The notes under the pieces were generated by a model. It was not told the DNA's origin, did not search any database, and was given only the letters and a program-made list of their open reading frames with translations. Source: Paraspadella gotoi (lineage: Eukaryota; Animalia; Chaetognatha). From it: a DNA stretch of 64,000 bases. The translations under genes and the position numbers were made by a program. This document shows, piece by piece, positions 18,540 through 58,963 of this stretch; position 1 is the stretch's first letter, and every line of letters begins with the position of its first letter. The DNA lies in NCBI GenBank assembly GCA_051294375.1, contig CM119268.1, forward strand, positions 21,173,020-21,237,019. Reading direction: 5' to 3'.

Positions 18540-18816
18540 TGGATAAGGCGCTAAGTGGGTGGAAGATATATCCGTAACTTCTATAACCCCCTTTAGTAGC
18601 CATGGAAGCGGTCCTGGGCTTGGAACCAGGCTTGAGGGGTTGCCACGCCCCCAAGGCGGCTTACGGCCGTCCTCACGCTTCCACAGGGTAAGTACCGGGT
18701 TGGGATTGAACCCGGTACCTAGTGGTCATGAGCTGATGGCTTTACTCAATGAGCACCGGTCAGGACTGAAGGTGTCATGCTACAGGCGGGTGAACCTAGG
18801 CAATGCCGCGACTACA
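18539..18816 (-). mobile_element. Inverted copy of family A LTR (fold-back)
   Basis: Reverse complement of 18245-18526, ending at ACTACA 18811-18816. Confidence 0.85.
18600..18687 (-). ncRNA. P5-type twister ribozyme, predicted cleavage 18663/18662
   Basis: Minus strand reads CCTGTGGAA GCGT GAGG ACGGCCG TAA GCC GCC TTGGGGG cgtggcaac CCCTCAA G CCTGG TTCCAAGC CCAGG accgc TTCCATGG. P5, the catalytic GA, UAA, T2 (GCC), P3, P4 and the loop-4 motif are all present. Confidence 0.8.
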
Positions 18817-19622
18817 TGTCTTCTACGTCGTCTTATTTCCGTCGTCTGTCGTCGCGTCGGTCTGTCTCGGTCCGTCGGTCTGTTCCGTCGGTCTGTCTGT
18901 CTCGTCCGGTCCTGTCCTGTTTCATAATCTGTCCGGGTGTTCTGTCTGTCCTGTCCTGTCCTGTCGGTCTGTCTGTCTCTCTGTCTCGTGCGGTCTGTCT
19001 TGTGTCTGTTTTCTCTCTGTTCGCGTCTGTCTGTGTGTCTGTCCGTCTGTCGCTGCTCTGTTCTCTGTCTGTCCGTCGTCTGTCTTCGTCCGTCTGTCCT
19101 GTCGGTCTGTCTGTCTGTCCGTCGGTCTGTCCGTTCTGTCTGTCCGTCGGTCTGTCTGTCTCTCTGTCCTCGGTCTGTCTGTGTGTCCTGTCCGTCTGTG
19201 CCTCTGTCCGTCGTCTGTCTGTGTGTCTGTCCGCTGTCTGTCTGTCTGGTCTGTCTGTCCGTCAGTCTGTCCTGTCCGTTGGTCTTGTCCCGTCGGTCTG
19301 TCTGTCCGTCGTCGTGTTGTCTCTGTCTCGGTCTGTCTGTCTGTCCGTCGTCTGTCTGTCTCCTCTGTCCGTCGGTCTGTCTCTGTCTGTCGGTCTTGTC
19401 TGTCTCCCTGTCCGTCGGTCCTGTCTGTCTGTCTGTCCGTCGGTCTGTCTGTCTCTCTGTCCGTCGGTCTGTCTGTCTGTCTGTCCTGTCGTCTGTCTGT
19501 CTCTCTGTTCGTCGTCGTCTGTCTGTCTGTCTGTCCGTCGGTCTGTCTCTCTGTCTGTGCCGTCGATCTGTCTGTCCTGTCCCTGTCCGTGCGTCTGGTG
19601 CTGTCCTCTCTGTCCGTCGGCT
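18817..19622. repeat. Degenerate (CTGT/CCGT)n tetranucleotide array, also at 18140-18244
   Basis: Directly visible, and it explains the 230-290 aa ORFs in all frames. Confidence 0.95.
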
Positions 19623-19744
19623 CATTTGTTAAGACAGAAAAATGTAAGGAACTGCTAGCGCCGCCTTTAATTTTAAAATTATAAGGAATAAAAGACGGTT
19701 TTGATGCAGTGCATGTCATAAATACACGGGCAAAGAAAGTTTTT

Positions 19745-19825
19745 TAGACATGTCATGTCATGTCATATCATGAAAATAAAGTCACTGCGGCGCAACACAT
19801 TGGAATTACCCATCTTGTTTATTAA
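19745..19825 (+). repeat. Short dispersed repeat shared with 23066-23150
   Basis: Both copies have (CATGT)n...GTCACTGCGGCGCAACACATT..ATTACC..TCTTGTTTATTA. Confidence 0.75.
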
Positions 19826-20121
19826 CAGCAACACTTTGGCTCACAGACATTCCCCCTTGACTAGACGCGTTCGTTTTTCTAATTGTATTCATTCTCTTCT
19901 ATACATTTACTTTTTTTATTCTCCATATTTTCGTTTTTTATTTATACTATTAGTTTTCCTTAGCTAGAACATCTGATTGTGATGTGTAAAAATTAATAAA
20001 TTCGGCTGTGAGAGACTCTCGAGTGAAAACTTACAAGGACCAGTTACGTTTTTATTATATATTATTATTATTTATAACCATTATAAAAAATTATCCTTTT
20101 TTTCACTGACCAACATTCTAG

Positions 20122-20324
20122 CAGACGATCTGCAATTCGATCCTCCTCTTTCTCCCCCTCTAATCCACAGTTCAATGATCCTCCCCCTCGCAAGCAGCAG
20201 GGATGTAAACCACAAGCCCCACTCACCTCCGTCCCGAGGCTGCGGCCGCCCCCGGGCTCATTTTGCCCCCTGGAGGCCAGACATTCCGCTCGAAGCCTCT
20301 CTCCTCTCCAAGGAGCCGAAAAAG
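20122..20324 (+). CDS. Probable internal coding exon, unknown product (DDLQFDPPLSPP...HFAPWRPDIPLEASLLSKEPKK)
   Basis: GC-rich open frame bounded by a pyrimidine tract with CTAG/CAG acceptor and a consensus AAG|GTGAGT donor at 20325. Confidence 0.45.
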
Positions 20325-21619
20325 GTGAGTTCTTTGCCCGCGAAAATCCGAATCTCACCTTCGAAGTCGTTTTGGCCGAAGATAGGAAAGTATCTTTCGT
20401 CGTCGCGAAACGAAATTCTTCCTCTTCGATCCTTACCTCTCCTTACCTCATCCTTACCTCACCTTTCTNNNNNNNNNNNNNNNNNNNNNNNNNNNNNNNN
20501 NNNNNNNNNNNNNNNNNNNNNNNNNNNNNNNNNNNNNNNNNNNNNNNNNNNNNNNNNNNNNNNNNNNNNNNNNNNNNNNNNNNNNNNNNNNNNNNNNNNN
20601 NNNNNNNNNNNNNNNNNNNNNNNNNNNNNNNNNNNNNNNNNNNNNNNNNNNNNNNNNNNNNNNNNNNNNNNNNNNNNNNNNNNNNNNNNNNNNNNNNNNN
20701 NNNNNNNNNNNNNNNNNNNNNNNNNNNNNNNNNNNNNNNNNNNNNNNNNNNTCGCATTTTTTCCCCTTAAGGATCTTCCGCGTCGCATATGACAGACTGG
20801 GGTATGGTATTCCCACCTGCTCTCTCTCTCTCTTTTTCTTTCTCTCTCTCNNNNNNNNNNNNNNNNNNNNNNNNNNNNNNNNNNNNNNNNNNNNNNNNNN
20901 NNNNNNNNNNNNNNNNNNNNNNNNNNNNNNNNNNNNNNNNNNNNNNNNNNNNNNNNNNNNNNNNNNNNNNNNNNNNNNNNNNNNNNNNNNNNNNNNNNNN
21001 NNNNNNNNNNNNNNNNNNNNNNNNNNNNNNNNNNNNNNNNNNNNNNNNNNNNNNNNNNNNNNNNNNNNNNNNNNNNNNTCGCTCCCTCTCTCTTTCTCCG
21101 CAACTGGATTTAACGGTTTCCCCATCAGCAACGGACCTACGAAAACCGCGCGCGTCTGAAATACTGAGGACCTTTTATTTTTCCACAACTCAAAAAAAAA
21201 TGTTAGAAGGAAAAAGCAACGAGTCGTCAAATTTTCGACCTTAAACGATTATCACCCCTTTAAGCCCAACCCAAACCCCAATCCAAGGCCCAGATTTGGG
21301 TATATGGGTGTAGTTATAATGTTACTAACTTACTAGTCTTTATTCAGCTAGGACTTGCAATACTAAATTATTGTTTTAAAATGAATTATTTTTTATTGTT
21401 AGACTATTATTCAAGCCTTTCTTATTTTTTTAACGCATGAAAACAGACAAAACAGAAAAAAATTATTACTGATATGTTTTGCCCAAACAATTTTTGGCCC
21501 AACCTTAGAGTCAATGCTGGCTCGGCTTTTAGAATTCGGTCCACCCTACCTCGTGCCTTAGTGTTCCGCCTCTACACATCCCTGCGTGTACCCATCTACA
21601 CACCCCTGCGTTCACCCCC

Positions 21620-21798
21620 TTCCACATCCCTTTTCCAAAACTTCTTCGCTTTCCTCCACTTTTTCCTTCTTTCTTACTTCCTTCCTATTTTCTATTTTTT
21701 GCACATCCATTTCCACATCCCTTTTTCCACATCCCTTTTCCAAAACTTCTTCGCTTTCCTCCACTTTTTCCTTCTTTCTTACTTCCTTTCTATTTTCC
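21620..21798. repeat. Tandem duplication, 105-bp period
   Basis: TCCACATCCCTTTTCCAAAACTTCTTCGCTTTCCTCCAC... occurs at 21621 and 21726. Confidence 0.9.
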
Positions 21799-23579
21799 AT
21801 TTTTTACTCTTTTTATGCTTTTTTTCGCTTTTTTTTCGACGACTTTTTGCTTTAATTTAATACTTTCTTCCATTTTTTTGCGGGGCTCTTTATATATTTT
21901 TATCTATTTTTCTCCTTTGACTTTTTCACGCTGAGATACTTGGTTCTTTAATCCCTTTTTTTCCTTTTTATTTTATAATTTTGTTATATTTGATTTTTTT
22001 TAAATACTTTCATCTCATCTTTCCTCTTTCAGTTTTCTCATTTTCTTTTTTTTTCTCTTTCCTTTTTTTTCCATTGTTCATTCTTATTTAACTAGTCAGC
22101 GTTTATTTAATTAATTTCTTTGATTTTCTCTTTTTTTCCAATATCTCTCATCTTATTTCTCTCTCCTTTTTTTCTTTTTTGTCTTTTATTACCTCTTGAG
22201 CATTACTCCCATTTTCCACAAAATTTCTCCCATTTTCCCTCCTTTATTTTTTTCTCCTCTCTATTTTCCTATCTTTTCCCCTTCACTCTCCTGCGCCTTG
22301 CAAACGACCAGAACTTTGTTGGCACGCCAATAAGAAGCCGCACTGAGCTCTTCGTTTTCCGCCAAACTCCGCTCTCTGCTTCGGTCTCTCATTCTCTCTC
22401 TCTCTCTGCTCTCTTTTGGGTCATCAAGGCTACGATCAACGATTCATTAGGCTTCTCTCTCCACGCTTTCTCAAATTTTTTAAAGAGAAGTGAAAAAGAG
22501 AAGAGAAAAAAAAGAAAAAAAGAAAAGAAAAAAAGAGAAGAGAAAAAAGGGAATGAATAAGAAAAGAAAAAAGAAAAGTAAATAAAAAGAAAAGAAAAAA
22601 AAAGTAAATAAAAAGAAGAGAAAAAAAGAAATAACAAAAAAAAATAAAAAAGAGGGAAGAAAAAGAGACAAGAAAAAGAGAGAAGAAAGAGAGATGAGAA
22701 AAAGAGAAGAGAAAAAAGAGAATTGAAAAAGAGAAGAGAAAAAAAAGAGAAAAAGAGAGAAAAAAAGGAGAAGTAAAAAAAAGAAGAGAAAAAAAATCAT
22801 ACAATATAACCTTAATCCCCCCAAAAATTATCCATTCCCCACTTTTTTTCGGCCTTGTAGATATTATGAGTTTCTCATTAATATGTTATGTCATGTCAAG
22901 ATAGAGGGGCGTTTACCGCCACAGCTCTTTCCCATCTCCCTCTTATATTGTACATAACCGTCTTTACTAAACTTTAGACTTATTAGACTCCATATCTTTA
23001 CTTACCTCTTTTACCTGATGAGAGACTAGTTAGTACCTACCTTTAGCTAGATACCCATCTTCCCAGCATGTCATGTCATGTCACGAGAAATACACGTGAT
23101 AAGGCGGTCACTGCGGCGCAACACATTTGCATTACCGTTCTTGTTTATTACTTTTCTTGAAATTCTTGATAGAAAACTTTCAAAGTTTTTATTTTGTAAT
23201 ATAGTGATGAAGGCCTTAAACCGCCCGAGCCTGTCCAAATTTTTTTATTAAATATCTAATTCATTTAGTGGCATAAATACCGAATCTAGAAATCTTTTCC
23301 ACCAAATTCAAACCTCAGGTGGTCATGAAATAAAATTAATTGCTGCTGTTGTTGTTGTTGTTGTTGCTGTTGTTGTTGTTGTTGTTGTTGTTTGTGTGAA
23401 ATGATCTCCTCGCCTGGAAGACTCGACGCAATAACAAAGATTGATCAGGCATTCAGGATGCACCTAGCCAGTCTTCGCCTGACTGATGAATCATCAAAAC
23501 AGAAACATGGACTCTTTTTTTTTAAAGTCGTTTCTCTTCATCAACTTTCACCGCAACGCGACTCTGCAGTTCATAGTCT

Positions 23580-23613
<34 letters not shown>

Positions 23614-23958
23614 TGTCTCTTGATAATGACTTTTTCAAAAAAATGTTGGTGACACAAAAGGGAGGAAGAGAACGACGACGACGACAGCGACGAAAATGAG
23701 GTTCGAGAACGAAGCACTATGATTACGTGAATGACAACGACGACGACGACGACGATGACGACGACAAAAAAAACGAGGGAACAAAGAATGAAAAGCAAAA
23801 ACTAATAAGAGAACAAACAAACGCGGAATCATCAAAGGCACAATGACGAAGGCAACCAATTTTGCAGAAGGCGACTTCGATGTCGACTTTATATTGCGTT
23901 GCTCTTGGAATTTAGTGAATTGAAATTGAATTGGAATTGAGTGAATGGCATCACGGTA

Positions 23959-24409
23959 TTGCAACGCGGTATTGCCAACCGGGCACTGCATCGCGGCATT
24001 GCAATACGGTTTTGCAAACCGGGCATTGCATTGCGGCATTGCAATACGGTTTTTCAAACCGGGCACTGCATCGCGGCATTGCAATACGGTTTTGCAAACC
24101 GGGCATTGCATCGCGGCATTGCAATACGGTTTTGCAAACCGGGCATTGCATCGCGGCATTGCAATACGGTTTTGCAAACCGGGCACTGCATCGCGGCTTT
24201 GCAATACAGTTTTGCAAACCGGGCACTGCATCGCGGCATTGCAATACAGTTTTGCAAACCGGGCATTGCATCGCGGCATTGCAATACGGTTTTTCAAACC
24301 GGGCACTGCATCGCGGCATTGCAATATGGTTTTGCAAACCGGGCACTGCATCGCGGCATTGCAATACGGTTTTGCAAACCGGGCACTGCATCACGACATT
24401 GCAATACGG
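23959..24409. repeat. 40-bp GC-rich minisatellite (GCAATACGGTTTTGCAAACCGGGCACTGCATCGCGGCATT)n, ~11 copies
   Basis: Exact 40-bp period from 24001 to 24361 with few substitutions and no spacers. Confidence 0.97.
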
Positions 24410-24677
24410 AACAAAACTTCATCGACGGAATAAAAATCATTCGACGATCAGTTTTTCTGCGACGCAGAAGACGACGACAATTACGACGATGACAAGACGA
24501 TGACGACGACGATAATGAAGACGACGACAATGACGACAATTACGACGATGACAAGACGACGACGACGACGATAATGAAGACGACAGCGATGCACAATGAC
24601 GGTTTCCATGACATTTTGACAATGATAAATAATGATGATAATTAAATCATTAAAAAAAAATATCGATGATAGTTATA

Positions 24678-24852
24678 TCATTAAATGATAAATAAAGATG
24701 ATATTTAAATCATTAAATGATAAATAAAGATGATATTTAAATCAATAAATGATAAATAACGATGATATTTAAATGATTAAATGATAAATAAAAATGATAT
24801 TCAAATCATTAAATGATAAATAAAGATGATATTTAAATCATTAAATGATAAA
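24678..24852. repeat. 32-bp AT-rich minisatellite, ~5.5 copies
   Basis: Unit TTAAATGATAAATAAAGATGATATTTAAATCA. Confidence 0.9.
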
Positions 24853-25129
24853 TTGAAATAAAAGTAGTATTATTACTCTGAAGGCCACACAACGCATAGG
24901 AAAAAATTGATATAGAAACGACGTTAATGACGACAACAACAACAACAACGACAACAACAACGACAACCTGGACGACGTCCCCAACGAATTTACGAGCGAC
25001 GACAACAACGACGACAACAACGACGACAGCAACGACGACGACAACAACGACGACGACGCTGCTTTTGAAATTCTGAAGGTGAATCTTATGAATGAATATT
25101 GGCAGAGGAATGAGGAATGGGAACGAAAC

Positions 25130-25185
<56 letters not shown>

Positions 25186-25877
25186 CTGCGTGTTATACAA
25201 GGACAGAATGTGGAAGAGAAAAGTCTCTCGACGACCGGGGATGACGAAGAGAGAAATGATAGGATAAAGTATACCATTGTAGATTCTAAATATCCTATTT
25301 TTTCCCTTTCCTTTTCTCTTTATTCTGTTTTGTATTCCATTATTTTGTTCCACCGCTCGATGATAGGATGATATCTATCGTATATTGCGTTCTTTGGTGT
25401 GTTTTTGTTCGCTTATTTCCATGATTAATCATGCGAAAGGAGAAATAACACAACATTCGTGATTTTTTGTCAAAGCGCAAGTGTATTCACAAACTTGAGG
25501 ATGATGATGTATAGTTTGATGATGTATCGATTGGATATAGATAGATGAATATTATGTAGAAGATTTGATGATGATGGTGATGATGATGAAATTTGGTGTG
25601 TAGGTAATATAATTGTAATTTAAGTCAGAATTGGAATTTATAACAAGTTAATCTCCGCTATAAACATATCTAAAGTGAATGTATTAATCTGCAAATTTCT
25701 TAATAAGATTTTTATTAATTAGTTAGTCAATATCGACAAGAAAGAGAAGATATAAAAATAAAAAAACAAATCATGATTACATATTTAAAAATGACGTTCT
25801 CTTATTTTGAGTAAATTAAGGCCTAACAGAACATTTAATCTATTATTTTCCAAATAAGGTAATGAAACTTCTCTTTC

Positions 25878-26008
<131 letters not shown>

Positions 26009-29000
26009 CTTTTTTTCTTTCTTTATCTTTTTTTTTTTTATTTTTACAGAAACGCGGCAACCACTAAGAGTAGTAAAAAGTGGAAGTGTTCACATTTTAT
26101 AATAAAATATGTTGACGTTTAATAGAATATTGCTCTTAGTCGATTGTTGTTTGCTGTGAAAAAATACCATTTCATGAAAATTTTCTGTAAACTGGTACGT
26201 AGTATCAAAGTAGAAAAATTCTTTGTCAAAAAAACAAGACTTCTTCTAAAATTTTGAAGAACAGCGGAAAAAAGAATGTAGTTTTAAAAAAAAATTAAAA
26301 AATTTATTTTAATTTTAGCTACTTATTCGCCCGTTTTTCTGAATTTATTGACTACTATTTTCCAGGTCGGGACATCAAACTGCCAAAGTCAAGTTGACAA
26401 TTTGATTTTGATTGTTTTTATTCCTGTTGACCCTTTTCAGACATCCCGACTCTAAAATCTCCAGCGCGTTTGCCCGTGCCGTCCTCGTTGTCTAGAATAT
26501 TCAACAACGACACTACCATTTTCCCGGCCTGTAGAAGGACGAAGTCCACCGCCAGGAATCGGTAATCATTTGTGTTAGGGTTTTGGTTGATAAATGATTG
26601 GTAAAAATCATATTCCCTTATTTATTTACTGGTCTGTCCCTTTTGTTGTTTTTTTTTGACGCCGTCATGACGGCAGAGAGGACGCGCCGCCGCAAACTGA
26701 CCGCAAATTCGGGTAAGTTAGATAGATCGCGAAGTTTTTGAAAAACGAGGCAATGCCCTTTTTCTCCCTTTCGCTTATAAAAATTACTTTTGAAAAATCT
26801 CAACACGATTACACACAATTATTATTAAATAATCATCGAGCAAAACGGCCCTCATGGAATTAATTTTTTTCAAACTGGGAGTGACTGTAATCAATATCCG
26901 GAATAAAAGCAGCCGTTAATGATTAAGGAGCAGTCCATTATTTTATCCTTGATTACTGTATAGAATTGCTCATTAAATCTATTTAAAATTTTCCTTGTTT
27001 GAGTTTTGTGAAGTTTTTAATTATTTCACTTTTTTGTCGGTCCGTGCAGTCCACGCCTAAGGGTCTTATCGGTAAGCAACTTAAATCAATGTCAGAACAT
27101 CGAATTATGATATATTATGCAACCAAAAAAAAACTATTGTCCGTTCCCGTTTTGTCCGTCCTTTCCGTCCGTTAGCATTGGATTGGATGGAATTGGATTT
27201 TTGAATGAAAATTTTGGGTGGGTGTGGTGAAGGGGTGATTGAGCTAAATTTTATAGAAGTGTTTTCGATGGAAATCGAGCAATGGAAATAAGTAATATAT
27301 ATAAGTCATATTCTAGCTCTTTCTTATTTTTATTCAATGGATTTATTAATAAATGGGAATTGTCCAATGTGAAAATGAGTTTTTAAAAAAATGGGAAAAA
27401 AACCTGTTATTAATTGATCAAAGTGGGCTTTTTTTAATTAAATATCTTTTTAATTAAATAATTTTATTATCTGATTAAGGTGTTCTTACGCGCTAAAAAT
27501 GATATGATAGTGAACAGTTTCACACGTCATTTGATTATTGCTTTTCTTTTCTTTTTATATGAAAATAAAATGGAGTTGTATTATTATTTATAATAAAAAA
27601 TGAGGTACCCGTCTTTTTGTGAGCTTTTTTGTACCGCGTTCGAATTTCATGAAATTTGTCATTTAGAGAGTTTAGATGACAATATAAATTGGAAACTATC
27701 GAGGCGAAATTTTTGATTTTCAACCCCTGACAGACAAGAAAAATTTTTTTAGTAGTCCTCAGGTTGCATTGAAGTTTTAATTTAAACATAAAAAATATTT
27801 TAGAACAAAAATTGATAAATTTTTCAATAATTAAGCATGGTTTTAAGTTCAATCGTTTTACTTCCAATTTTTTGCTCAAATTATTCCAAATCATAGAGTG
27901 AACCGCTTGATGTTCATGAAGCTGAAAATTAAGAATAAGCTAATATTTTTGAGGGTAAAATAAATCGTTAAATAAACGTCTATGCACTTGATCAAAACAA
28001 ATAACTGGAAATTTTTTTTTGAAAAAAGTGAAAGGCATCCGGGACCCCCAAATATGCGGCCTGCAGGGGTGCAAATTATAAATTTTGGTCCAGTAGTTTT
28101 TTTCGGAACGTGTTTTGCTGGTCACAAGAAAGGGGTACCCCGTCATTTTATAATATGAAGACTTCTGTAATCAATCTAAACCAATTCTCAATCAAAATTA
28201 AATAATAAATTATTCCAATTTAAATAATTAATTTAATTAATTTAATTCATTTAATTAAACTTATCAGTCGATATAAATCAATGCAACAAAAATTATTCAT
28301 CAAACAATTAATCAATGTTAACATTCGTCGTCGTCGCCATCTCGTCGACGTTTGCTGCTTTTCTTTGTGGTTAATAAACCTGACAAAAAAGAACCTAAAA
28401 AACAAGATTTGAAGCAAACAACTGATAGAATAATTATTTTTAATATTAAATAAATTGATTAATTAATTACTGTATATGACGTGGGCAGATCCGGCATGTT
28501 TGCGCTTCACTTTTTTTTTTTTTTTTTAGCGCCTAGAACGCTTTTTTTCCATTCCCTGGAACGTTCGCTTTCTGCCTAATTTTTATTCTATTCAAACATT
28601 AGTATGCAAAGATTTCATTATAACTTTTTTCGGTCCTTTATCTGTTTTGTGCCCACAGCCTTACCTCCTTCTAATATTTTCTATGATTGTCTATCTCCGA
28701 TCAAGGAGGTATTAATAAATCCGCATGAAAACTTGAATCCCCTTCGGGTCTTCTCTGCCCGCGTAGTCCTCAAGCGTGTGGCCACTAGTGCCACAAACTT
28801 TTTTGAAAAACAACTGGGCGTCGATTCGTGGCCTCTTCCTTTTTTCCAGATCTTCATATATTAATATTGTTGTTTTCTTCGTTTCGTTGGTGCTTACTGT
28901 TTTTTGCAACGACGTTCGCGTCGTAAAGTGACTTGCGCTCATGTCGATTTTATCGTAGTTTTTTTTTCTTGATTTTTTAATTTATACTATTTTTTTGTTT

Positions 29001-29769
29001 GTTGCAAATCAATTGATATCTAATGATTAATCATTTAATGAGAGAGATAATCGTTTGCAATATCGTTATTATGGTATATAATGGCGTTACCATTTACCCG
29101 GCCACCGCCAGTTATCTATGGCGTGTGTCGAAATTTTTTTAGACAAAAACTTTCTTACCGCCACTAAGAAAGAAATCTTTTAAAATAGGCTTTGTAGATT
29201 ACTTTGATATGCCGCATTTGGCTATTTCTTAACCCTGGGTTGATTATCATTATTTTAAGGCTTCTCTCTTCAAACGTATTATATAGCGCAAGTAAAGTCA
29301 GAATTTTCTTTAGGATTTTAAAATAAAAAAAATTTCTTTTAAAATTGGGGTTTTGAAATAATTTTTTTACGTGTTTCGAAGTAAAAACCACACAATTTCG
29401 ATTTAAATATCGAAAAAACAAGTTAAATAGCTGCAATTTTTAATTTTTTTTTAAGCGCGATACAATCTTTTTTTTAATAATTTTTAGAAAGAAAATTGTA
29501 GCAATAGCATTATGTTGCATGAAAATACTATCCCTTTTTAGATCTTAAAAGTTTTTGCCTTTGCCTTCTGTATCTGATGTTGCACAATTCTAATTGGGTG
29601 ATTAAGATTGTTATTATTTTTTAGAAAATAAAGTGTTGTTTTTAATTTAAATCAATGTTTTATTCCATACTATGAAAGCATAGATTTAAAAACAGTAAGC
29701 TTGTTGCGATAGAACAAAAACAACGTTTGTAAGCAATTCTTTATTATTCAAGGCATAAAAATTTAAATG

Positions 29770-43035: not shown

Positions 43036-43121
43036 CAGACAACCAATTGTACTGTCTCTAATCACATACCCTTTTTAGGAATGCGAGGTTATTCATATTT
43101 ATAAATTGTTAATCCAATATA

Positions 43122-43155
<34 letters not shown>

Positions 43156-43469
43156 TTTTTTCTTTTTCTCTCTTTCTGTCTTTCTCTCCATCTTTCTATG
43201 TTTAGTTCTTTTTATTTATTTCTTTCTTTCTCCTTTTCTCTTTCCTTCTTTCTTTCTCATTCTCCTTTGGCTTCGCTTTCCTCATTCTCAACATCGTTAA
43301 ACATTTCTTAAACATTTTTAAGTAAAAATTCTTTATTTTTCTTCTTGAGTGAAAATCTCTCTTTTCTTTTCTCTCTTCACCTCAAAAAACCGTTCGTCAT
43401 TTTCCCCACTGAATATAACGTCCTTGAATCTTTGAAAAGCATATCTCGTTTCTTCTCTCTCTCTCTCTC

Positions 43470-43519
<50 letters not shown>

Positions 43520-44039
43520 CCTCTCTCTTCTCTCTCTCTCTCTTCTTTTTTTCAAAGAGGAGAACGACGACCGCGGACACCGACGACCACACCGACGACC
43601 GGTTAATATATTGACGGCTCCCCACGGCCAATAACCTTTCATTACTTTGCATGATTTGTTGAGACAATGATGAAATGACCGGCACGACGACAATACTGAC
43701 CGACCAACTGATGACGACGACAGAGAGACCATAAAACTGAGAAAGTACATTAGGTCGTGGCAATTGAAAAACATTAATGACAATGTTGATTATGATGTTT
43801 TCGATAATGTGTTTTGATGCTTCATAACAATGATGATTAATGATTGATTGATATTTTTTTAACCATGATGCTATGTATGATGGTGATGATTATGATAACA
43901 ATGATGAAATATTAATGATGATATTTATGACCATGGTTTGATGATGATATGAAGATCGGATGATGCTCGATGATGTTCTTTGATGATTGATGAAGGAGAT
44001 AATGAATGATTGACCTGGAGATTCTCCCGACTGGTAGAT

Positions 44040-49342
<5,303 letters not shown>

Positions 49343-49849
49343 TCTCCTTCTTACCAAAGAAATGGGAGGAAGGGTGGAAAAGGAGAGGAAGGAAATGGGA
49401 AAGGAGGAAAGGGAGGAAGGAAGGAGAAAAAAGGAAGGGAAAAAATAGAGAAGGTAAAAAAAGAGAGGGAGGGAAGAGAGCAAAGAAAAGAAACAGAGAT
49501 GAAAAGGGAAGGAAAAAGAGAAGAAGGATAAGGAAAGGGAGGTAAAGGGAGGAGAGAAAGGATAGGGAAAAGGGAGGAAAAAGGAAAGAAAATAGGAGAA
49601 AGAATCGTGGAGAGAAAGAAGAAAAAAATAATTTTAAGGAAAGGACTAAGATTAATTTTAAGAAAAGAAAGAAAAATTTACAACTAAAAAAGGCGAAGTA
49701 GACAGAGAAAGGAGAAAAAAAAAAGAAAAGCAAAGTTGGAGGAAAGAAGCAGAAAAAAGAAAGTAGAAAGAAAAAAAGAAAATGGCTGCCACCGAAAACA
49801 CAAATCCCGATGGAGAGGAGGTGAAAAGGCGAAAAGGGCGGGAATGATG

Positions 49850-50185
49850 TGGAGGCTTTGATGGAGGAAAATGATGGAGTGATGATGGGAGAGTTAATAG
49901 AGTTGATGGAGGAAATTGATGGAGTAATGATAGAAGAGTGAAAAGAGCTGATGGAGGAAATTGATGGAGTGATGATCCGTGGGTAATTATAGTTTATGGA
50001 GGAATACATGAAGCGATAATTTTCGAGTTGATGGGGGAAATGATGGAGCGATAATGGGAGATTTGATATAGTAGATGGGAAAATTGATGGGAGAGTATAT
50101 GGGAAAAATAATATAGTGATGATGGGAGAGCTAACAGAGTTAATGGGGAAATCTATGAAGTGATGAAAGATTGAGTGATGGAACA
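49850..50185. repeat. Degenerate ~45-bp purine-rich tandem repeat
   Basis: Recurrent GATGGAGGAAATTGATGGAGTGATGATGGGAGAG. Confidence 0.7.
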
Positions 50186-50789
50186 ATATTTTTTGCTGAC
50201 TTTGTATATGTAATAAAAAATAATTAAGCCCTTTTTCAAAATTTGCATAACAGCATCATTAATTGAATTTTTTTATAGTAATATCCTTTTAAAATCATAA
50301 AATTTTAAAATAATATTTTTTTTTATTCAAGAACAGTTTCGGATTCGCCGGAAAAAACTGAAAAACTTTTGTAAAATATGTTTCATTATATTTTTAGGTT
50401 AAAGCTGAGAAAAATGACCAAAACTTTTCATCACTCATCATAGTTTCTATTACAGAGCGTAAAAAAGTGGAGAATTTTGACTTTTTGTTCCATTTTTGAC
50501 GCTGAAGACATTGAAATTTTTAATAACATATTTTATATTTTTGATCTAACTTTTTATAAAAAAATCATAAGCTTTCATAAAAATTTTGTCCTCCTTAATC
50601 ATACTATCTCAGGTCTAAATATCCTTGTTTGTTCACTCAAATAGAATTTATGTTCCCCAGTCCTTCACTCTAGTGCGCATGGATTGAGGGGACATCGCAA
50701 GGGGATCTTGGTGGCTCGACCTAAAGTGCGGCAACGTGAGCGACAGGCGGAGCGTGAATGCAGAACCAGAAATAAATTCGAGACTCCAA

Positions 50790-50824
<35 letters not shown>

Positions 50825-51409
50825 AGAAAAACAAGAAGAAGACGACGATAATGATGACGACGACGACGATGACGACGATAAAGTCGACGACGACGACGAC
50901 AATGTTTAAAAGAAAATGACAAAATGAAACGAGACAGAAGAAAACAATAAATGAAAAAAAAAATTCCAGTTTTTAAGTCGAAAAAGATAGAAAATGATAA
51001 CCATAAACCTATCGATTGACTGGTATTAGAACTTCATTTTAATATTACGCCATCAATGCTTAATAGAAGGGTACAGTAGTAAAATGATAGAAGTTTGCAT
51101 TACTTAAAACTCAATTAATATCGATTTAAGAAAAAAACGGTCAACCAAGTTAACCAGGTTAAACAGTTAAACGTTTTATTAAACAGTCAAATACAATTTC
51201 TAAGAAAATAGTAAAATCAATCAGAATATATCTCCAGCTTCGAGCCCAACTTCCTGCAACATTGGGCTTTGATAATTCAGTTTTACCCCAATTTCGCTTT
51301 CAACGTCGAACAAAAGACTAATTTCAGTATTTGCTCTTTTTTTTAGCAAACATCAAAAGAAAATCATTTTTTTCATGATTATTTTTTCCTTTCCAAAAAA
51401 AAAAAAGAT

Positions 51410-51622
51410 TGTCGGCTTCTTTGTTTCATTCATTTCTCTATTTTCTCCGCCGCCGCCGCAGCCGACGGGGCTGTCGACGCTGCAGCCGCTGCATACAACG
51501 CCGCCTCCACTCCTGCCTCCACTTTCGCTGCAACCTCTTATCCTACCACTGACGCCTTCAATGACGAATCCAACATTGACGCTTTCTTTGCCAGTGACAC
51601 CTCGGCCTCTCAAATAGATGGC
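51410..51622 (+). CDS. Probable coding exon (hydrophobic, then Ala/Ser/Thr/Asp-rich), truncated by a gap
   Basis: A frame not listed in the ORF track reads CRLLCFIHFSIFSAAAAADGAVDAAAAAYNAASTPASTFAATSYPTTDAFNDESNIDAFFASDTSASQIDG. The stretch is GC-rich. Confidence 0.35.
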
Positions 51623-54600
51623 NNNNNNNNNNNNNNNNNNNNNNNNNNNNNNNNNNNNNNNNNNNNNNNNNNNNNNNNNNNNNNNNNNNNNNNNNNNNNN
51701 NNNNNNNNNNNNNNNNNNNNNNNNNNNNNNNNNNNNNNNNNNNNNNNNNNNNNNNNNNNNNNNNNNNNNNNNNNNNNNNNNNNNNNNNNNNNNNNNNNNN
51801 NNNNNNNNNNNNNNNNNNNNNNNNNNNNNNNNNNNNNNNNTCCCGCCGCTCTCTAATCCGATTAAAAACGTCTCAAAACCTTCCCAAGATTTTCTCACCA
51901 TATTTTCATCTCGTTATTTTTCACAGGGCGTCCGGTTCATTTGATTGGTACCGTCTTGGAACCGTATGTTTTGGGAGGAAAAGGTCCGGAGAACGCAACC
52001 GGCTTTTGATTCTTTTTTAAATCTAATTTTAACATCCAGACAGCCTGCTTATGAATATTGTGGGAGGTGAATTCCATTTATTAGGTGTCGCTAGTTAAAT
52101 TGAAGNNNNNNNNNNNNNNNNNNNNNNNNNNNNNNNNNNNNNNNNNNNNNNNNNNNNNNNNNNNNNNNNNNNNNNNNNNNNNNNNNNNNNNNNNNNNNNN
52201 NNNNNNNNNNNNNNNNNNNNNNNNNNNNNNNNNNNNNNNNGGTGTCGCTAGTTAAATCGAAGTATAAACGAATAAACTAAATATATTAAAACCTAGAAAG
52301 TCCTTTCAAGTGAGAAAGAAAACTCTAATAAGAATAACAAATATGTCTCCACTCTGTTCACATCTCTCTCTCNNNNNNNNNNNNNNNNNNNNNNNNNNNN
52401 NNNNNNNNNNNNNNNNNNNNNNNNNNNNNNNNNNNNNNTCTCTCTCTTCTCTTCAATTAAAAAAAAAAGGAATCAAAAATGAATTTTTTGAAGAAAAAAA
52501 AAAGAAGAAGAAAATTTGCAAAACAAACGACGGCGGCGACGACAGCGCCGTCGACATTGAAGCGGGAAAAGCAATTAGACGAAGAGAAACAAAACAGCAA
52601 CTAATTAGGAACCGCGAAAAAAAAGAAGGGGGGAGAGAAATTGAAAGAGAAGAATGATATGAAGAGAATTTTTTTTTAAAAATGAAAGAGCCTACCTTTT
52701 TTTCAATTTCATTTTTTTTCTTAATAACTTGAGTCAAAGTTAGTCCAATCTCGAGAAAAAAAATTTATGATCACCCATTAAAGGGAATCGGAAATAACGA
52801 TAACTCGATAAAACGATACTCGGATATAACGAGAAATTGAGGCTGAGAAGGCGAAATTTTTAATATGAGACGTCGACATATNNNNNNNNNNNNNNNNNNN
52901 NNNNNNNNNNNNNNNNNNNNNNNNNNNNNNNNNNNNNNNNNNNNNNNNNNNNNNNNNNNNNNNNNNNNNNNNNNNNNNNNNNNNNNNNNNNNNNNNNNNN
53001 NNNNNNNNNNNNNNNNNNNNNNNNNNNNNNNNNNNNNNNNNNNNNNNNNNNNNNNNNNNNNNNNNNNNNNNNNNNNNNNNNNNNNNNNNCCACCGCCAGG
53101 ATCGCGTTATCACCAAACGTCTCGCGTTATCATGAAGGATCGTGAAAGATGAAATATCTTTGTGTCAAATTGTGGTTTTTGCGGGTTGATATATGGGCAG
53201 TGTTTTCCTAAAGCACCCCATTCCTGTTTTTTTTTATTTCTTTTAAGGTAATTTTTATTAAAATATTAAACCCGATTTTTAAATTTAAACCTTGAACCAT
53301 AAACGTAATCTCGAATCCACATGAAAAAATTTTGACGAGGATTTCAATCTTTTATAAAAATTTAGGAAAAACCAAATATTATAAATCAAATTTTTTTATC
53401 CATATCATCATTCTTTTAAATAAGCGAAGTCTCTACCTATAAACGCGCAGTTATCTTATTTTTATGAAATATCATTTCGTTAAAAGTTTTTAAATACATG
53501 AGAATATCCAAATATGCATGATTCGTATTGCACTTTTTTCTTGTGTACGTCAAACTAAGATATTGTAGGCAAATCGCGCGTGTGATTCTCTCTCGTCGCT
53601 GCAGACAACGATCTTGAAGTTTGCGTTCGCCTCTGAGGACGTCNNNNNNNNNNNNNNNNNNNNNNNNNNNNNNNNNNNNNNNNNNNNNNNNNNNNNNNNN
53701 NNNNNNNNNNNNNNNNNNNNNNNNNNNNNNNNNNNNNNNNNNNNNNNNNNNNNNNNNNNNNNNNNNNNNNNNNNNNNNNNNNNNNNNNNNNNNNNNNNNN
53801 NNNNNNNNNNNNNNNNNNNNNNNNNNNNNNATCGAAGATGTCGACATTAAAGGGAATAAAAGGTCTTCAAGTGTCTCCTTGCGTCAGAAAGGGTGATGGA
53901 TGAGATGTTTTAGGGAGGAAGAGATAGAGAGAGAGAGAGAGAGAGAGAGTTTGGAGTAAGAGAGAGAGAGGGAGAGCGAGAGTTAGGAGTGAGAGAAAGA
54001 AGGAGAGAGAGAGGCAGGAAGTAACGGACGGATGCAAAGAGAGAGATTAGGGAGTAAGAGAGAGAGGAAGTAACAGAGAAAGAGAGAGAGAGTGTTTGGA
54101 ATGAAATAGAAGAAAAGATAGAGTTTGAAAGAAAAAGAGTGAGCGAGAGAGAAAGAGAGAAAGTGTGAGAGAATATATATTTAAAGAAAGAGAGAGATAG
54201 AAATGTTAAAAAAAGAAGAAATTTAGATAATTAAAATAAGATTAGCTTCAGCTCATTTTAATTCAAAAAGCAATTCATCTCATTGTTAGAAACTAGAAAA
54301 TATAGATTGACTTTTTGCCCTGAGTAAAGTGTTTCACAACTTCCTAACGTTATGACAGAAAGATAGTGAAAAAAAAACTGGGATATTCCCCGAACGGACA
54401 TCAACTTTGAGAGTAAAATATGAGAGGCATTGACCGGAGGCGAGAGAGAATCTTAAAAGGCCCCCTGAGAAACGCGTGTATACATGCCTGGGAGTTGGTT
54501 GTAAAGAAGGAGACGACGAGGAGAGACGAAGGACGAGCAGACCGACGACCGAGACGAGGAGAGAGAGAGCCAGAGAGAAGACGAGACGAAGGCCAGAAAA

Positions 54601-54906
54601 TAAAGCACGAGACCGCAGACGGACACGAAAAAAATAAGAGAACCGGGCAGCCTGGTCGGGAGGCATCGGGGCTTGCGTCTGACAACCGTACCGACGCCGC
54701 CGGACGACCCCTCTCCTTCCGCTCCTCCTCTCTCTACCGCCCGGTCTGAAAGGTCGGAGGTCATCCGCGTCGGTGACTCTCGAAAAATGAGCGGATCCNN
54801 NNNNNNNNNNNNNNNNNNNNNNNTGTTGTTGTTAATAGAGTGAAGAGGAGATGAGAGAGAAGAGACGAGCAGAGGATGAGAGAGAGAAGAGAGAGAGAGA
54901 GAGAGA

Positions 54907-54964
<58 letters not shown>

Positions 54965-55249
54965 CATGGGTTTGGTCGACAATCGACCGAGCCGCGATGA
55001 CGACCAAAAAGGCTTCCCTCTTCCTCCGTCCTTCTCTCTTTACGCGCCCAGTCACAATCTTTCATTGATTTGCCATATTTAACTATTTATAAGATATTTT
55101 CTGATACCCAAGCGCGTAGGTCATCAATAATTCTCGCAGATCTCTCTCTTGTTAAAAAGAGCGATAGAAAACTCTCGATGGAAAATGTATAAATCACTAA
55201 TGACACTTACCATACTCATAATTATTCATCTACTACTTGTGACGATTTA

Positions 55250-58200
55250 GCGATTGTACAGCAGACCTGGTGTTCTTATATCGGTGCAATTGTCCAGCAC
55301 ATTACCTGAGAGCAATTTTCTGTACCTTTCCTTTCTTTCTCTTCTCTACTTTCTTCATTGTGTGTTTAATTTTGACAACTACTTTTCCTGCTTTCTTTCT
55401 CAACCTCTCTCTTATTTCTTACGATCTACTCTCAATAATAGGTGCGTCTTCTTGCTCTCCAGAATCTAATGATTGAAGCCGTCAGCGAGGCAATGACTGG
55501 GGCCTTCACATACGGCACCATAATGTAGGCCAGCCCAACAAGAAGGGGTCGGGTGGTCGATAAATAAACATAATAGAACTATCAGTATTGAATATGTATG
55601 AGTATATGAGTTATGTTTTGTTGTTGTTGCCTATTAATACTGAGTTTAGTATCGCGCCAGGGTACTTTATATTGTGATAATCTTCCCTGCGCTAAATCAT
55701 GAATAAATAGCAGCTATTATATGACTATATACTATAATGCCGAAGCAGTGGAAGTTTAGTTGCATAAAAAAGATTTTAATTTACATGTAGAAGCGCTCTG
55801 AGCCAATGAGTTATCTCTCAAAGTTATTTGATTATAAAATAATAGAATACTCCTTGAAAAAGTGTTTTCCACTCAGGAATTATCTATAAAATAATTCGTG
55901 AAGTGTGGCGAGAGGAGAGAAAAATTAGCTAGGAGAGTAACTAAAACGAAGGAGAAAAGACAAATTAGAAAGATCGAGCCGAGAAGAGATTCTGAATTCT
56001 ACAATAAATTATTCATTACTCGCTTCTACGTAACGTGAGCAGAGAAAAGTAAAGATAATTATCATAGGTGAGTGCTCTATTATAAATGATCTGGATAAAG
56101 ATGCCGGTAGGCGGCATCAGTGGAGAATTAACCCTCAAAGATTATTTTAAACTGTTTATAATTAAAAGCTTAATTTGAAAATATAAAAATAATCCTTGGA
56201 AATAGGAACTGAAATGCGCCCTATATGGGTTTGCGCTATGGCAGACATCAAGTTTCATTTTATAGTCAATAACATTCGTAAACATAATGACGAAATGAAG
56301 GTAGGCAGAGTATGGAGAGTATGAGCAGTGAATCAGTTGTATGATTCATATCTAAGAACACTTTACAAAGAAGATATGTATACGCACAGAGAGATATTCT
56401 CTGTGAGATTCGTAGAGACTTAATTTTGGAGGCATAAAGACTGAAACAGAGACCACGAACTCTACTAACTCGTTTGGTATCTCACATACATCGTCGTCTT
56501 ATGCTGTGAAATCATTAAATCAAAACATTAGGATAAGTTACGGTATAATATTAAAATATGTCTCTCGATGTTTGTATACATACCAGGTAAGAACAATATG
56601 ATGTAGAGTACTGGAGTCATTGTATGCGCACGTGCAAACGTAATGGAACCGCGGGAAATAACACGATCTTGCGTCAGGATTTTATGTTGCACATGACGCC
56701 CGATTCGTGAGCTTACGGAATTTGAAATCACAATCAATCTACACTCTGGTGTGACACTAAAAATATAATATCATCGTAGCTACAAAGAGAAAAAGAGAAT
56801 ACGTATTTAGAAATGCGTATAGCTGAGCTGAAGGAGGGAGAGATGAGATGAGAGAACACATATTCTCCAAGAAGTATAGCAATATGAGAGAGAGAGAGTA
56901 TTTTTCTCGCAGAGAGCATGAAAAAGAAATTTATCCAGTCAGATTACGAGACACCAATCTGTGACGAATGGGTTTGAATTCGGTTCACCCCGGGCAAACG
57001 GTTTGATTACTGATAACTTGTAGAATCCAGCGGTTCAATCCTTGTGTGGCTATCAGACGACCGTCAATTAATAATTTGGGTAAAAATAGACGAGAATTAT
57101 GAAGCCTATTTCAATTTTTTTTCTGAACTCGTGTTCAGTATCTTAATTACTCGTACTCATTGCATAAATATTTATTGTGTGCTAACACAAAGAAGCCAGC
57201 AGAGAGATACTCATCTCTCTCTCTTTTTTCTTCCTTTCTCTACCGACGGGCGATCGTCGCGGGTCTATCGTGCGACTTACCTGCGTTTCTTACCTTTCCT
57301 TTCTTTCTCTCTCTCTTTCTCCTTGTTTCTCCGTTTCTCTCTCTGTTTCTCTCGCTGTCTCTCTTGCTCTCCAGAAATCTAATGATTGAAGGGTCAGCGA
57401 GGATGACTGGGGCTTAATGAGGGCACATAATTTAGGCTGCACAAAGGGTCCGGTGGTCAAATATATTGACCTTGTTGTTGTTGTTGTTGTTAATGTTGTT
57501 GTCCTTTCTGTTGCCGCTCAGGCTTTTTTGGTCTTCTGGTTAATTGAAAACAATAACAATATTATGGAATTAGTGATAGAAAAAGTAATCTGTAAAGCAA
57601 ATGATCCAAAGTTAGTGATTTTCTCAAAATAATCGATGTTCTACTAAATTCTAAAATTCTAAGAGGGAGAGGGAGAGAAAAATAGAGAGAGAGACAAAGA
57701 GAGAGAGAGAAAGAGAGCGAGAGAGAGAGATTCTAAAGTCTCTAAATTTTTCAACTCGCATCCTGGACGGAAAAGAATTTTCATGTGGGCGTTTTTTAAT
57801 TGATACTGATAAAAAGGTAGCGCTCATCAGTGGAGAATTAACCCTCAAAAGATATATTTTAACTGTTATAATTAAAAGCATAATTTGAAAAATAAAAAAT
57901 ATGCTTGAAATAGGAACTGAAATGGGCCCTAATGGTTTGGCTATTGCGAGCAAGTTTGATTTTGATCCAAGAAACATGGAAACAAATGGCAATGAAGTAG
58001 GAGTTGGGAGTTGAGTGAATCGTTGTATGGTTCATAATAAAACACTTCAAAATTATCTCGATAAATTCTCTGGTGTTCGTCTTTTTGGAGGAAAAGACAT
58101 TGAAGACCCAACAAAATTTGTATCCCAAATCGATTATGAAAACATGCTTTCAAACATGAAATCTGTAAATAATTTAAATTCCGAGTTTCTTCTCAGTCTG

Positions 58201-58575
58201 ACCAATTTTACAGATTTGTGCCATACTATGGGAAATAACGATGTCGTCAGGAATTTAGTGCCCTCTATCACGAATTTGGAAATCACAATCAATCTGCTCT
58301 CGGTTTTTTGCAAATAGCGACGACAAGAGAAAGAAATATTGTAGTTTCTATAGCTTCTGGTGAATATGGAAGCATTCTCCAAAATCATGTTTTTCTCCAA
58401 GAGCTAAAAAAAATTTATCCAGTCATTCACCAATCTTACATGGGTTTGAAATCGGTCACCGCCGGCAAGCGGTTTGATTTATAACTTGTAAATCCAGGGT
58501 TCAATCCTGGTTGCATCAGCGATTAATAATTTGTAAAAAGATTATTTATAACTTTTCAATTTTTTTTTGACACGA
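55250..58575 (+). repeat. Tandem duplicate: insertion-corrupted copy (~55250-57130) followed by a cleaner copy (~57240-58575)
   Basis: Shared anchors include CATCAGTGGAGAATTAACCCTCAAA at 56115 and 57825, and AAATTTATCCAGTCA at 56927 and 58411. Confidence 0.9.
58015..58526 (+). CDS. Protein-like frame with stops (gene fragment, unknown product)
   Basis: A 100-aa ORF of normal composition (KTLQNYLDKFSGVRLFGGKDIEDPTKF...) continues past a stop as RRQERNIVVSIASGEYGSILQNHVFLQELKKIYP. Confidence 0.35.
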
Positions 58576-58885
58576 GAGAGTCCGTCAGTTCTAACTTATC
58601 GATAAAATGCACATCAAGAACCATACTGGATGTTCTAGAGGTTATAACTCAGCCCTTTACCCAGACCTGGAAAAAATTAACACACAAGTCTGTAAACAAC
58701 AAAACAGTCAACTAAAAAAAATTAAATACAATGGATTGTTACTCAAAAGTCAAAACCAAAAACAGCATGGAAAGTAATCACCACGTATATGTGTCTGAAA
58801 AATAACTTGCGTAGTTATTATGAATCTAAGAAAGTGAAGAGACAGTAATTATTGATAAGTGTTAATGACAGAACCGTTCAATATA

Positions 58886-58961
58886 AGCAGTCCCTGAGCT
58901 TCGGATCAAGCTGTAACACCATGTTACAGGCGGGTTAAGCGCCCCGTCCCTCTTAACTGCT
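58886..58961 (-). ncRNA. P5-type twister ribozyme in the 3' LTR, predicted cleavage 58937/58936
   Basis: Minus strand reads AGCAGT taa GAGG GACG GGGCGCT TAA CCC GCC TGTAACA tgg TGTTACA G CTTGA TCCGAAGC TCAGG g ACTGCT. It has P5 6 bp, P3 7 bp, P4 5 bp, a loop-4 YCCGAAGC, T1 CG:CG and T2 GCC. Confidence 0.85.
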
Positions 58962-58963
58962 AG

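What the first reader, a model, noticed from the sequence alone, without database searches (positions are those of the whole stretch)
18600..58961. Pseudoknot covariation and a shared non-canonical P1/P2 between the two twisters
Family A (18600-18687) has loop-4 UU-CC-AAGC with GA-GG. Family B (58886-58961) has loop-4 UC-CG-AAGC with GA-CG. This is a compensatory swap at the T1 pair of the twister fold. Both have a 7-nt linker instead of a full P1 stem, and a 3-nt P2 5' strand facing G-N-G-K (3 bp with a bulge at the same position), whereas canonical P2 has 4 bp. P1 is known to be dispensable in minimal twisters. Inference: a structural variant that standard models may miss.
Basis: partly seen in the sequence, partly recalled or inferred. 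Interest (0 to 1): 0.82.

Follow-up and report, generated by a model that had tools for sequence, protein, structure and literature searches.

The report
Paired twister ribozymes in miniature retrotransposons
Two unrelated high-copy repeats of this animal genome each carry a twister-type self-cutting RNA motif whose first stem has lost its loop and become self-complementary, so the RNA is predicted to cut best in pairs, likely using the two end-repeats of a miniature retrotransposon.

Summary
Both motifs are minus-strand, P5-order twisters with the T1 swap, a 7-nt P1 linker and a 3-nt P2 strand. Rfam misses both (A 16.8 bits against a cut-off of 37.6; B no hit). The unusual part is P1. All 57 reference linkers are at least 15 nt; here linker plus U is an 8-nt self-complementary stretch in both families, with different sequences. 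That mirrors hammerheads that cleave as dimers. Both twisters lie behind a tRNA-like promoter in sharp-ended 234-283-bp repeats with several LTR marks (purine tract, primer-site-like motif, TGT...ACA ends), like Helenus TRIMs. Best reading: Pol III mini-LTR elements whose two LTR twisters pair through P1 and cut out a unit-length RNA. Dimer dependence rests on two families only, with weak shuffle controls and no assay; twisters tolerate P1/P2 defects, so monomer cleavage is a close rival. The scan noted a twister-headed retroposon in another genome, but not this layout.

The parts
18600..18687 (-). Family A twister, P5 order; predicted cut between 18663 and 18662
   Evidence: Rfam Twister-P5 16.8 bits, aligned with 3 P1 pairs and a 0-nt loop
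18663..18670 (-). Family A P1 linker plus U(-1): perfect 8-nt palindrome
   Evidence: Sequence; self-duplex -14.1 kcal/mol, hairpin form +2.4
18692..18761 (-). Family A tRNA-like head with B box (18712-18702); A box intact in the + copy
   Evidence: Box patterns; ARAGORN makes no call even with a relaxed threshold
18539..18816 (-). Family A repeat unit, minus copy; starts TGT, ends one base short of the + copy's end
   Evidence: 3,577 contigs laid in run X1
18245..18527 (+). Family A repeat unit, plus copy, with TGT...ACA ends; its twister at about 18378-18463
   Evidence: 92% identical inverted copy; ends read directly
18529..18539 (+). Primer-binding-site-like 11-mer starting TGG, 1 nt after the + copy, at the fold-back centre
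   Evidence: 10 of 11 letters match the tRNA-Trp PBS listed for Gypsy-32_NVi and Helenus-2_SyJa in Fig. S2 of PMC10886601 (compared by eye)
18241..18244 (+). Possible 4-bp target-site duplication (TGTC) of the inverted A pair; second copy at 18817-18820
   Evidence: the site lies in a TGTC microsatellite, so chance is a real alternative
58886..58961 (-). Family B twister, P5 order; predicted cut between 58937 and 58936
   Evidence: no Rfam twister hit at E up to 10
58937..58944 (-). Family B P1 linker plus U(-1): 8-nt self-complementary stretch with two G.U pairs at each end
   Evidence: Self-duplex -9.7 kcal/mol, hairpin form +5.1
58963..59035 (-). Family B tRNA-like head with a 7-bp acceptor-like stem and a B box
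   Evidence: ARAGORN calls it only at the 80% threshold (Gly-CCC with majority letters), where 30 of 200 shuffles also give a call
58835..59068 (-). Family B repeat unit (234 bp), putative 3' LTR, sharp ends TA...CA
   Evidence: 15,931 contigs laid in X1; loose ends pile at 58835 (158) and 59068 (145)
59071..59081 (-). 11-nt purine tract 2 nt before the second B unit only (PPT-like)
   Evidence: 37 contigs of X1 cover the place beside it
59069..59263 (-). 195-bp non-coding spacer between the two B units (putative internal region); no clear PBS as read
59264..59521 (-). Noisy second B unit, putative 5' LTR, with its own twister
   Evidence: 80% identity with many insertions
61134..61209 (-). 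Third, partial B unit cut by an assembly gap; keeps loop 4 UCCGAAGC

Best explanation
Families A and B are likely the LTRs of non-coding miniature LTR retrotransposons with a tRNA-type promoter, and each carries a twister ribozyme that is predicted to cleave best as a strand-swapped pair through its self-complementary, loop-less P1. Shown: the twister core, T1 swap, 7-nt linker, 8-nt self-complementarity, high copy number and sharp ends. Inferred: (1) Pol III starts in the 5' LTR and reads through to the 3' LTR, since no T4 run lies in either unit. (2) A lone twister tends to misfold, with the linker pairing to the weak P2 5' strand. (3) Two twisters on one RNA swap strands so that the two linkers form one 8-bp P1 shared by two active cores. 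(4) Double cleavage frees a unit of about 450 nt. As in plant LTR retrozymes it would be circularised and reverse-transcribed from a tRNA primer by a Gypsy-type helper, giving full elements and solo units. I put the LTR/TRIM part at about 0.7 and dimer-favoured cleavage at about 0.45-0.5.
For: P1 linkers of 57 strictly filtered phage P5 twisters are 15-32 nt (median 21); none is 14 or shorter. A full viral scan for 5-12-nt linkers gave 18 loci, none passing. Both linkers are fully self-complementary with different sequences, including a G-C versus C-G swap at the central, adjacent positions, which cannot pair within one strand. Rfam aligns A with three P1 pairs and no loop. The twister-compatible monomer fold costs 7.8-9.5 kcal/mol over the best fold (9.1 for B as read, 16.4-19.3 for the A copies as read), more than 56 of the 57 references (medians 0.6 and 1.5). 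The swapped dimer costs 0-2.1 per core against two free monomers, and for A the unconstrained two-strand optimum contains the 8-bp linker duplex. Precedent: hammerheads with a 1-2-bp stem III and a palindromic loop cleave as dimers (PMC6765202, PMC7229834, passages). LTR marks: TGT...ACA ends, a TGG-start PBS-like motif and a 4-bp flank repeat for A; two direct units with a purine tract before the second only, sharp ends with no tail, and majority flanks ATAT on both sides in 3 of 4 runs for B. No listed loose-end pile or depth step at B's cut site.
Against: Only two families, and no cleavage data. Composition-preserving controls are weak: 6 of 20 (A) and 12 of 60 (B) linker permutations gain as much from dimerising, and the monomer penalty does not depend on linker order. 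In a tandem model the active dimer still lies 5.2 (A) and 6.0 (B) kcal/mol per core above the best fold. Pseudoknots are not in these energies. A G/C-only loop is palindromic by chance 48 of 192 times, and a loop deletion makes a palindrome by itself. About 94% of tested natural twisters cleave, regardless of P1/P2 imperfections (PMC11662667). For the LTR reading: B has no clear PBS and its pair's flanks do not match as read (TTCT versus CTTT; noisy copy); B begins TA in most contigs; only about 2-5% of B depth continues into the purine-tract side; A's flank repeat lies in a microsatellite; no helper element was identified.
Confidence: 0.42

Rival explanations
1. Same elements, but each twister cleaves as an ordinary monomer with a 2-bp P1 capped by four bases; the palindrome is a relic of a deleted P1 loop.
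For: P1 is dispensable (PMC5408937, passages). P1/P2 length, bulges and mismatches did not lower cleavage in a test of about 2,600 natural twisters (PMC11662667, abstract and passages). A 2-bp hairpin is geometrically possible. Shuffle controls do not single out the natural linker order. One bacterial candidate has a 7-nt non-palindromic linker (L626; unverified).
Against: The hairpin form is unstable (+2.4 and +5.1 kcal/mol). The monomer penalty exceeds 56 of 57 references. Complementarity is kept at positions that cannot pair within one strand, in two different sequences.
Confidence: 0.36
2. The units are not LTRs but SINE-like or Penelope-dependent retrozyme monomers (tRNA head, ribozyme, tail), as in schistosome Sm-alpha repeats, whatever the cleavage mode.
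For: tRNA-like head followed by a ribozyme; most copies stand alone; the inverted A pair recalls Penelope insertions (recalled); animal retrozymes are linked to Penelope-like elements (bioRxiv 10.64898/2026.07.22.740005, abstract and part 1).
Against: 33-55 nt of leader upstream of the tRNA-like part is kept; no tail repeat or poly(A); no head-to-tail junction among the 15 of 76 joints shown; PBS-like, PPT-like and TG...CA marks.
Confidence: 0.14
3. The twister is a dead or barely active passenger of the repeats and plays no part in their spread.
For: Rfam scores are low or absent; a competing hairpin is the predicted best fold; copies are not seen to start at the cut site.
Against: All core nucleotides, T1, T2, P2, P3, P4 and P5 are intact in both families, with pair-preserving differences between them (T1; 9-44 G.U versus C-G) and within A.
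Confidence: 0.08

Closest known systems
Type-P5 twister ribozyme (Rfam RF02684)
   Same: Order of parts, GA-T1, UAA cut site, GC T2, loop 4 UNCNAAGC, P4; a 3-bp P2 is within the family.
   Different: No P1 loop (7-nt linker against 15 nt or more), a probable 1-nt bulge in P2, a long P3; below threshold or undetected.
Dimer-cleaving minimal type I hammerheads of Penelope-like elements and amphibian retrozymes (PMC6765202, PMC7229834)
   Same: A 1-2-bp stem capped by a palindromic four-base loop next to the cut site; two ribozymes could share one helix.
   Different: A different ribozyme class; dimer cleavage is shown there and only predicted here.
Helenus TRIMs (Kojima 2024, PMC10886601)
   Same: Non-coding, under 1.3 kb (B pair 687 bp), tRNA-like sequence inside the LTR behind a leader, TGT...ACA ends (A), PBS and PPT layout, 4-bp duplications in animals.
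   Different: The paper never mentions twisters, and 12 loop-4 motif searches of its consensus file gave 5 hits, none in a twister context. Here a ribozyme follows the tRNA-like part, and B's PBS and target duplication are unconfirmed.
Plant LTR retrozymes (PMC4918200)
   Same: A ribozyme in each LTR, a short non-coding internal region, PBS/PPT, 4-bp duplications, many solo LTRs, a circle model.
   Different: Those carry type III hammerheads in plants; no PBS or PPT was found in metazoan hammerhead repeats (passage read). Here a twister, a tRNA-type promoter and an animal host.
Schistosoma Perere-3 T-variant twisters (PMC8501958)
   Same: Twister in a retroelement with a reduced P1.
   Different: Those sit at the 5' end of an RTE non-LTR element and copies begin at the cut site; here the ribozyme is internal and P1 is closed by a tether.

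Membership tests
Twister ribozyme class | Conserved core: GA before T1, UAA cut site, GC of T2, loop 4 UNNNAAGC | tested here: met
   kept in short-read contigs
Twister ribozyme class | Pseudoknots T1 and T2 can pair | tested here: met
   GG/CC in A, CG/CG in B; GC/GC in both
Twister ribozyme class | Stems P2 and P4 present | tested here: met
   P4 5 bp; P2 2 bp plus a probable third pair across a bulge
Twister ribozyme class | Site-specific self-cleavage at U/A | not testable with these tools
   No raw RNA reads were offered; needs an assay
Rfam Twister-P5 (RF02684) | Score at or above 37.6 bits | tested here: not met
   A 16.8 bits; B no hit at E up to 10
Rfam Twister-P5 (RF02684) | P1 closed as a hairpin with a loop | tested here: not met
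   7-nt linker; references 15-32 nt
Helenus / TRIM | Two direct LTRs around a short non-coding region | tested here: inconclusive
   One noisy B pair in the window; about 2-5% of depth continues past the unit; no such pair seen for A
Helenus / TRIM | TG...CA ends | tested here: inconclusive
   Met for the A + copy; B reads TA...CA; a TA start also occurs in one listed Helenus consensus
Helenus / TRIM | PBS after the 5' LTR | tested here: inconclusive
   A: 10 of 11 match to a listed tRNA-Trp PBS; B: not recognisable in the noisy copy
Helenus / TRIM | PPT before the 3' LTR | tested here: met
   B only: 11-nt purine run at 59081-59071; none upstream of either A copy
Helenus / TRIM | 4-bp target-site duplication | tested here: inconclusive
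   A pair TGTC/TGTC in a microsatellite; B majority flanks ATAT/ATAT in 3 of 4 runs at low agreement; B pair mismatched as read
Helenus / TRIM | tRNA-derived A and B boxes inside the LTR | tested here: inconclusive
   B box in all four versions tested; A box matched only in the A + copy; no ARAGORN call at the default threshold
LTR retrozyme | Unit-length linear and circular RNA made by ribozyme cleavage | not testable with these tools
   Only contigs were available
Dimer-cleaving ribozymes | Weak as monomer, active as dimer through a palindromic helix | tested here: inconclusive
   Palindrome and energies fit; shuffle control weak; no assay

The most novel reading that the evidence does not exclude
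The first twister ribozyme that works as a strand-swapped dimer, counting the two LTRs of its own transcript, inside an animal LTR retrozyme driven by a tRNA-type Pol III promoter: solo units stay mostly uncut, while full elements excise and circularise their RNA.
Probability: 0.3. Interest if true: 0.86.

Novelty: new variant of a known kind. Interest (0 to 1): 0.66.

Why it matters
Dimer-dependent cleavage is known for hammerheads in retroelements; finding the same design in a twister would show that mobile elements reached it twice, with unrelated catalysts. It would also give a concrete job to a eukaryotic twister, a class with little confirmed biology, extend LTR retrozymes from plants to animals, and suggest how a Pol III-driven TRIM can copy itself through an RNA circle. 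Both motifs occur in very many copies yet fall below Rfam thresholds, so similar families may be hidden in other invertebrate genomes. The constructs are under 100 nt and directly testable.

Tried and rejected
No whole genome is held, so genomic copies could not be aligned and no covariation statistic across copies was run. No RNA holder was listed; this says nothing about expression. Searches for further natural examples found none convincing. Metagenomes: 0 of 119 loci (40 of 64 parts scanned) passed T1 + 9-44 pair + P4 of 3 or more. Viral contigs: none of 13 loci looked real; 5 of the loci passed a loose filter and none was convincing; 0 of 18 passed for short linkers. Prokaryote genomes: 3 of 120 loci (49 of 64 parts) passed, none palindromic, not followed up. 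None of these collections targets animal genomes. Rejected: sequencing artefact; 3-bp P2 as a novelty; T1 swap as a novelty; a true tRNA gene; a hammerhead on the opposite strand (a CUGAAGA motif without a following GAAA, read by eye). A Helitron-like reading of B (end hairpin plus an inner inverted repeat) was considered and left untested. The linker-permutation control did not support the dimer model. Paper searches found no dimer-cleaving twister and no twister in an LTR element; the library lacks most subscription papers, and the supplement of PMC11662667, which lists about 2,600 tested twisters, could not be read and may hold short-linker P5 cases.
Full report
1. Observation. The window is an AT-rich, microsatellite-rich, gapped assembly with noisy stretches, most likely of an animal (inference). 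A pattern search of the window finds them plus a second A copy on the plus strand; BLAST adds a noisy second B unit and a partial third one. The T1 swap is as described: GG with CC in A, CG with CG in B. Both have 7 nt between T1 and UAA and 3 nt between UAA and the T2 GC.

2. Is it an error? I laid contigs of 4 of the 9 listed runs on each family. B drew 15,931 contigs and A 3,577 in run X1, so both are abundant repeats; the tool's depth is not a copy number. In B no indel at 5% or more is listed inside the ribozyme. The one near-fixed difference there (58909, 99%) turns a wobble in P4 into a Watson-Crick pair, and most of the rest look like CpG decay. In A two adjacent positions (18608, 18609; 96-99%) differ, and with the majority letters P5 no longer competes with P2. 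No indel appears among the rows shown for 18600-18679, but 24 indel rows and 23 substitution rows were not shown.

3. What is ordinary. Pattern scans of viral contigs (two of them stopped at 13 and 18 of 64 parts) were parsed and filtered for T1 pairing, fully paired P2 and P4 of 4 or more, leaving 57 distinct P5-order twisters. T1's free pair was GG 47, TG 6, CG 3, AG 1 times, so T1 covariation is routine. P2 had 3 pairs in 35 and 4 pairs in 22. I gave Rfam 20 of these loci (18 with a 3-nt strand, 2 controls) and all 20 passed the Twister-P5 cut-off. A review says P2 has four pairs and may not tolerate changes (PMC5408937, passages), but a later high-throughput test found cleavage largely independent of P1 and P2 length and imperfections (PMC11662667: abstract, passages, section 35; supplement unreadable). 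The bulge remains plausible: the last P2 pair is C-G in 33 of the 35 three-pair references, and only the bulged register gives that pair here; in A the bulge base varies 18% against 2% for its neighbour in X1. It shows no covariation and B adds nothing.

4. What is unusual. Reference P1 linkers are 15-32 nt. Scans aimed at 5-12-nt linkers gave 0 of 18 passing loci in viral contigs (complete scan) and 3 of 120 in prokaryote genomes, none palindromic. Rfam gives A 16.8 bits, drawing three P1 pairs with a zero-length loop, and gives B nothing; the whole-window scan listed no twister. Linker plus U(-1) is self-complementary over all 8 nt in both families, with self-duplex energies of -14.1 and -9.7 kcal/mol against +2.4 and +5.1 for the hairpin form. 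The two families differ at 5 of 7 linker positions and still pair, including a swap of the two central bases, which can only pair between strands. Chance estimates span a wide range: 192 of 3,072 hairpin-compatible linkers have a palindromic loop, but 48 of 192 G/C-only loops do. For two families that is 1 in 256 to 1 in 16.

5. Folding. In both families the best monomer fold pairs the linker region with the P2 5' strand. Forcing the twister layout costs 9.5 (A) and 7.8 (B) kcal/mol with majority letters, more than 56 of 57 references treated the same way. A strand-swapped dimer, which is fully nested, costs 0-2.1 per core against two free monomers, and A's unconstrained two-strand optimum contains the linker duplex; B's pairs through P3 instead. 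Against this, permuting the linker gives equal or larger dimer gains in 6 of 20 and 12 of 60 cases, and in a tandem model the active dimer is still 5.2 and 6.0 kcal/mol per core above the best fold. Pseudoknots are not modelled. The energies are compatible with the dimer idea and do not prove it. The precedent is the hammerhead with a very short stem III and palindromic loop that cleaves as a dimer (PMC6765202, passages and section 11 part 1; PMC7229834, passages). The hatchet ribozyme dimerises through a palindrome without needing it for catalysis (PMC7357161, passages), which is a caution.

6. The host elements. B is a 234-bp unit with sharp ends at 59068 and 58835, random AT-rich flanks, no tail, and no listed end pile or depth step at the cut site. 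In the window two B units stand in direct order around 195 bp, with an 11-nt purine run just before the second only. About 2-5% of depth continues onto that side. The A plus copy runs TGT...ACA (18245-18527) and is followed after one base by a TGG-start 11-mer matching 10 of 11 letters of a tRNA-Trp primer site listed for Gypsy and Helenus elements. An inverted A copy follows, and the pair is flanked by TGTC on both sides, inside a microsatellite. I read this pair as a fold-back product inserted as one unit (inference). Both units have a tRNA-like segment with a B box between a leader and the twister, not called as tRNA at the default threshold, and neither has a T4 run; the noisy B copy has one. 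This is the layout of Helenus TRIMs (PMC10886601: main text parts 1-4 of 6, supplement parts 1, 6 and 10 of 11, 12 motif searches), with an added ribozyme that the paper does not describe. Weak points: B starts with TA, has no clear PBS, and its pair's flanks do not match as read; no direct A pair and no helper element were seen.

7. Mechanism. Most likely, Pol III transcribes from the 5' LTR through the 3' LTR, the two twisters pair through their linkers and both cut, and the unit of about 450 nt is circularised and copied from a tRNA primer by a Gypsy-type enzyme. Plant LTR retrozymes are proposed to work this way and to yield solo LTRs directly (PMC4918200, passages). Every step after the sequence anatomy is inferred. 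The closest rival is the same element with an ordinary monomeric twister.

8. Novelty. Ten paper searches listed no dimer-cleaving twister and no twister in an LTR element; for most listed papers I saw only titles and abstract starts. I also read passages of PMC10085705, PMC6154101, PMC8501958 and PMC13725137, and part 1 of 5 plus passages of bioRxiv 10.64898/2026.07.22.740005. The original twister, mini-twister and dimer-hammerhead papers were not read and are known to me through these citations and recall; the O. sativa numbering used for positions is recalled. Earlier scan notes hold no look-alike sequence. Verdict: a real new variant of the twister class in a retroelement setting not found in the papers I could search, interest 0.66; the dimer mechanism is a testable prediction at somewhat under even odds.

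Noticed in passing
L324, L377, L388-L393, L399, L415, L416 and others (viral contigs): P5-order twisters with a 3-bp P2 are the majority of my strict phage set (35 of 57), nearly always ending in a C-G pair, although a review describes P2 as needing four pairs. Several contigs carry two or three twisters about 600 bp apart.
   Followed up: partly
L626 (Nitrospirales MAG), match at 151-213: Twister-like motif with a 7-nt, non-palindromic linker, T1 TG/CA and a contiguous 3-bp P2; could be chance among 120 loci, but would favour monomer activity if real.
   Followed up: no
L217:301-350: Metagenome hit with the same P4 as family A and a bulged-P2 layout, but a mismatched T1 and a non-pairing linker; decayed copy or chance.
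   Followed up: partly
window 18776-18794 and 58920-58938: The leader of family A shares 17 of 19 bases with the P2-T2-P3 junction of B's twister (E 0.19); perhaps a remnant, perhaps chance.
   Followed up: no
window 59069-59263: B's spacer holds two degenerate repeats of about 50 nt and a short inverted copy of the unit's 3' end near 59100-59110.
   Followed up: no
window 58872-58881 and 59039-59047; 59047-59066: An inverted repeat encloses B's tRNA-like part and twister in one long-range stem, next to a small terminal hairpin.
   Followed up: partly
window 5630-5776 and 14044-14303: (GA)n...(TC)n fold-backs give many sub-threshold microRNA hits in Rfam; these are low-complexity artefacts.
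   Followed up: no
window 23948-24409: 40-bp minisatellite, 11.6 copies, 93% matches.
   Followed up: no
window 58835-59068: Many minor variants in B are C>T or G>A at CpG sites, suggesting DNA methylation of these repeats in the host.
   Followed up: no
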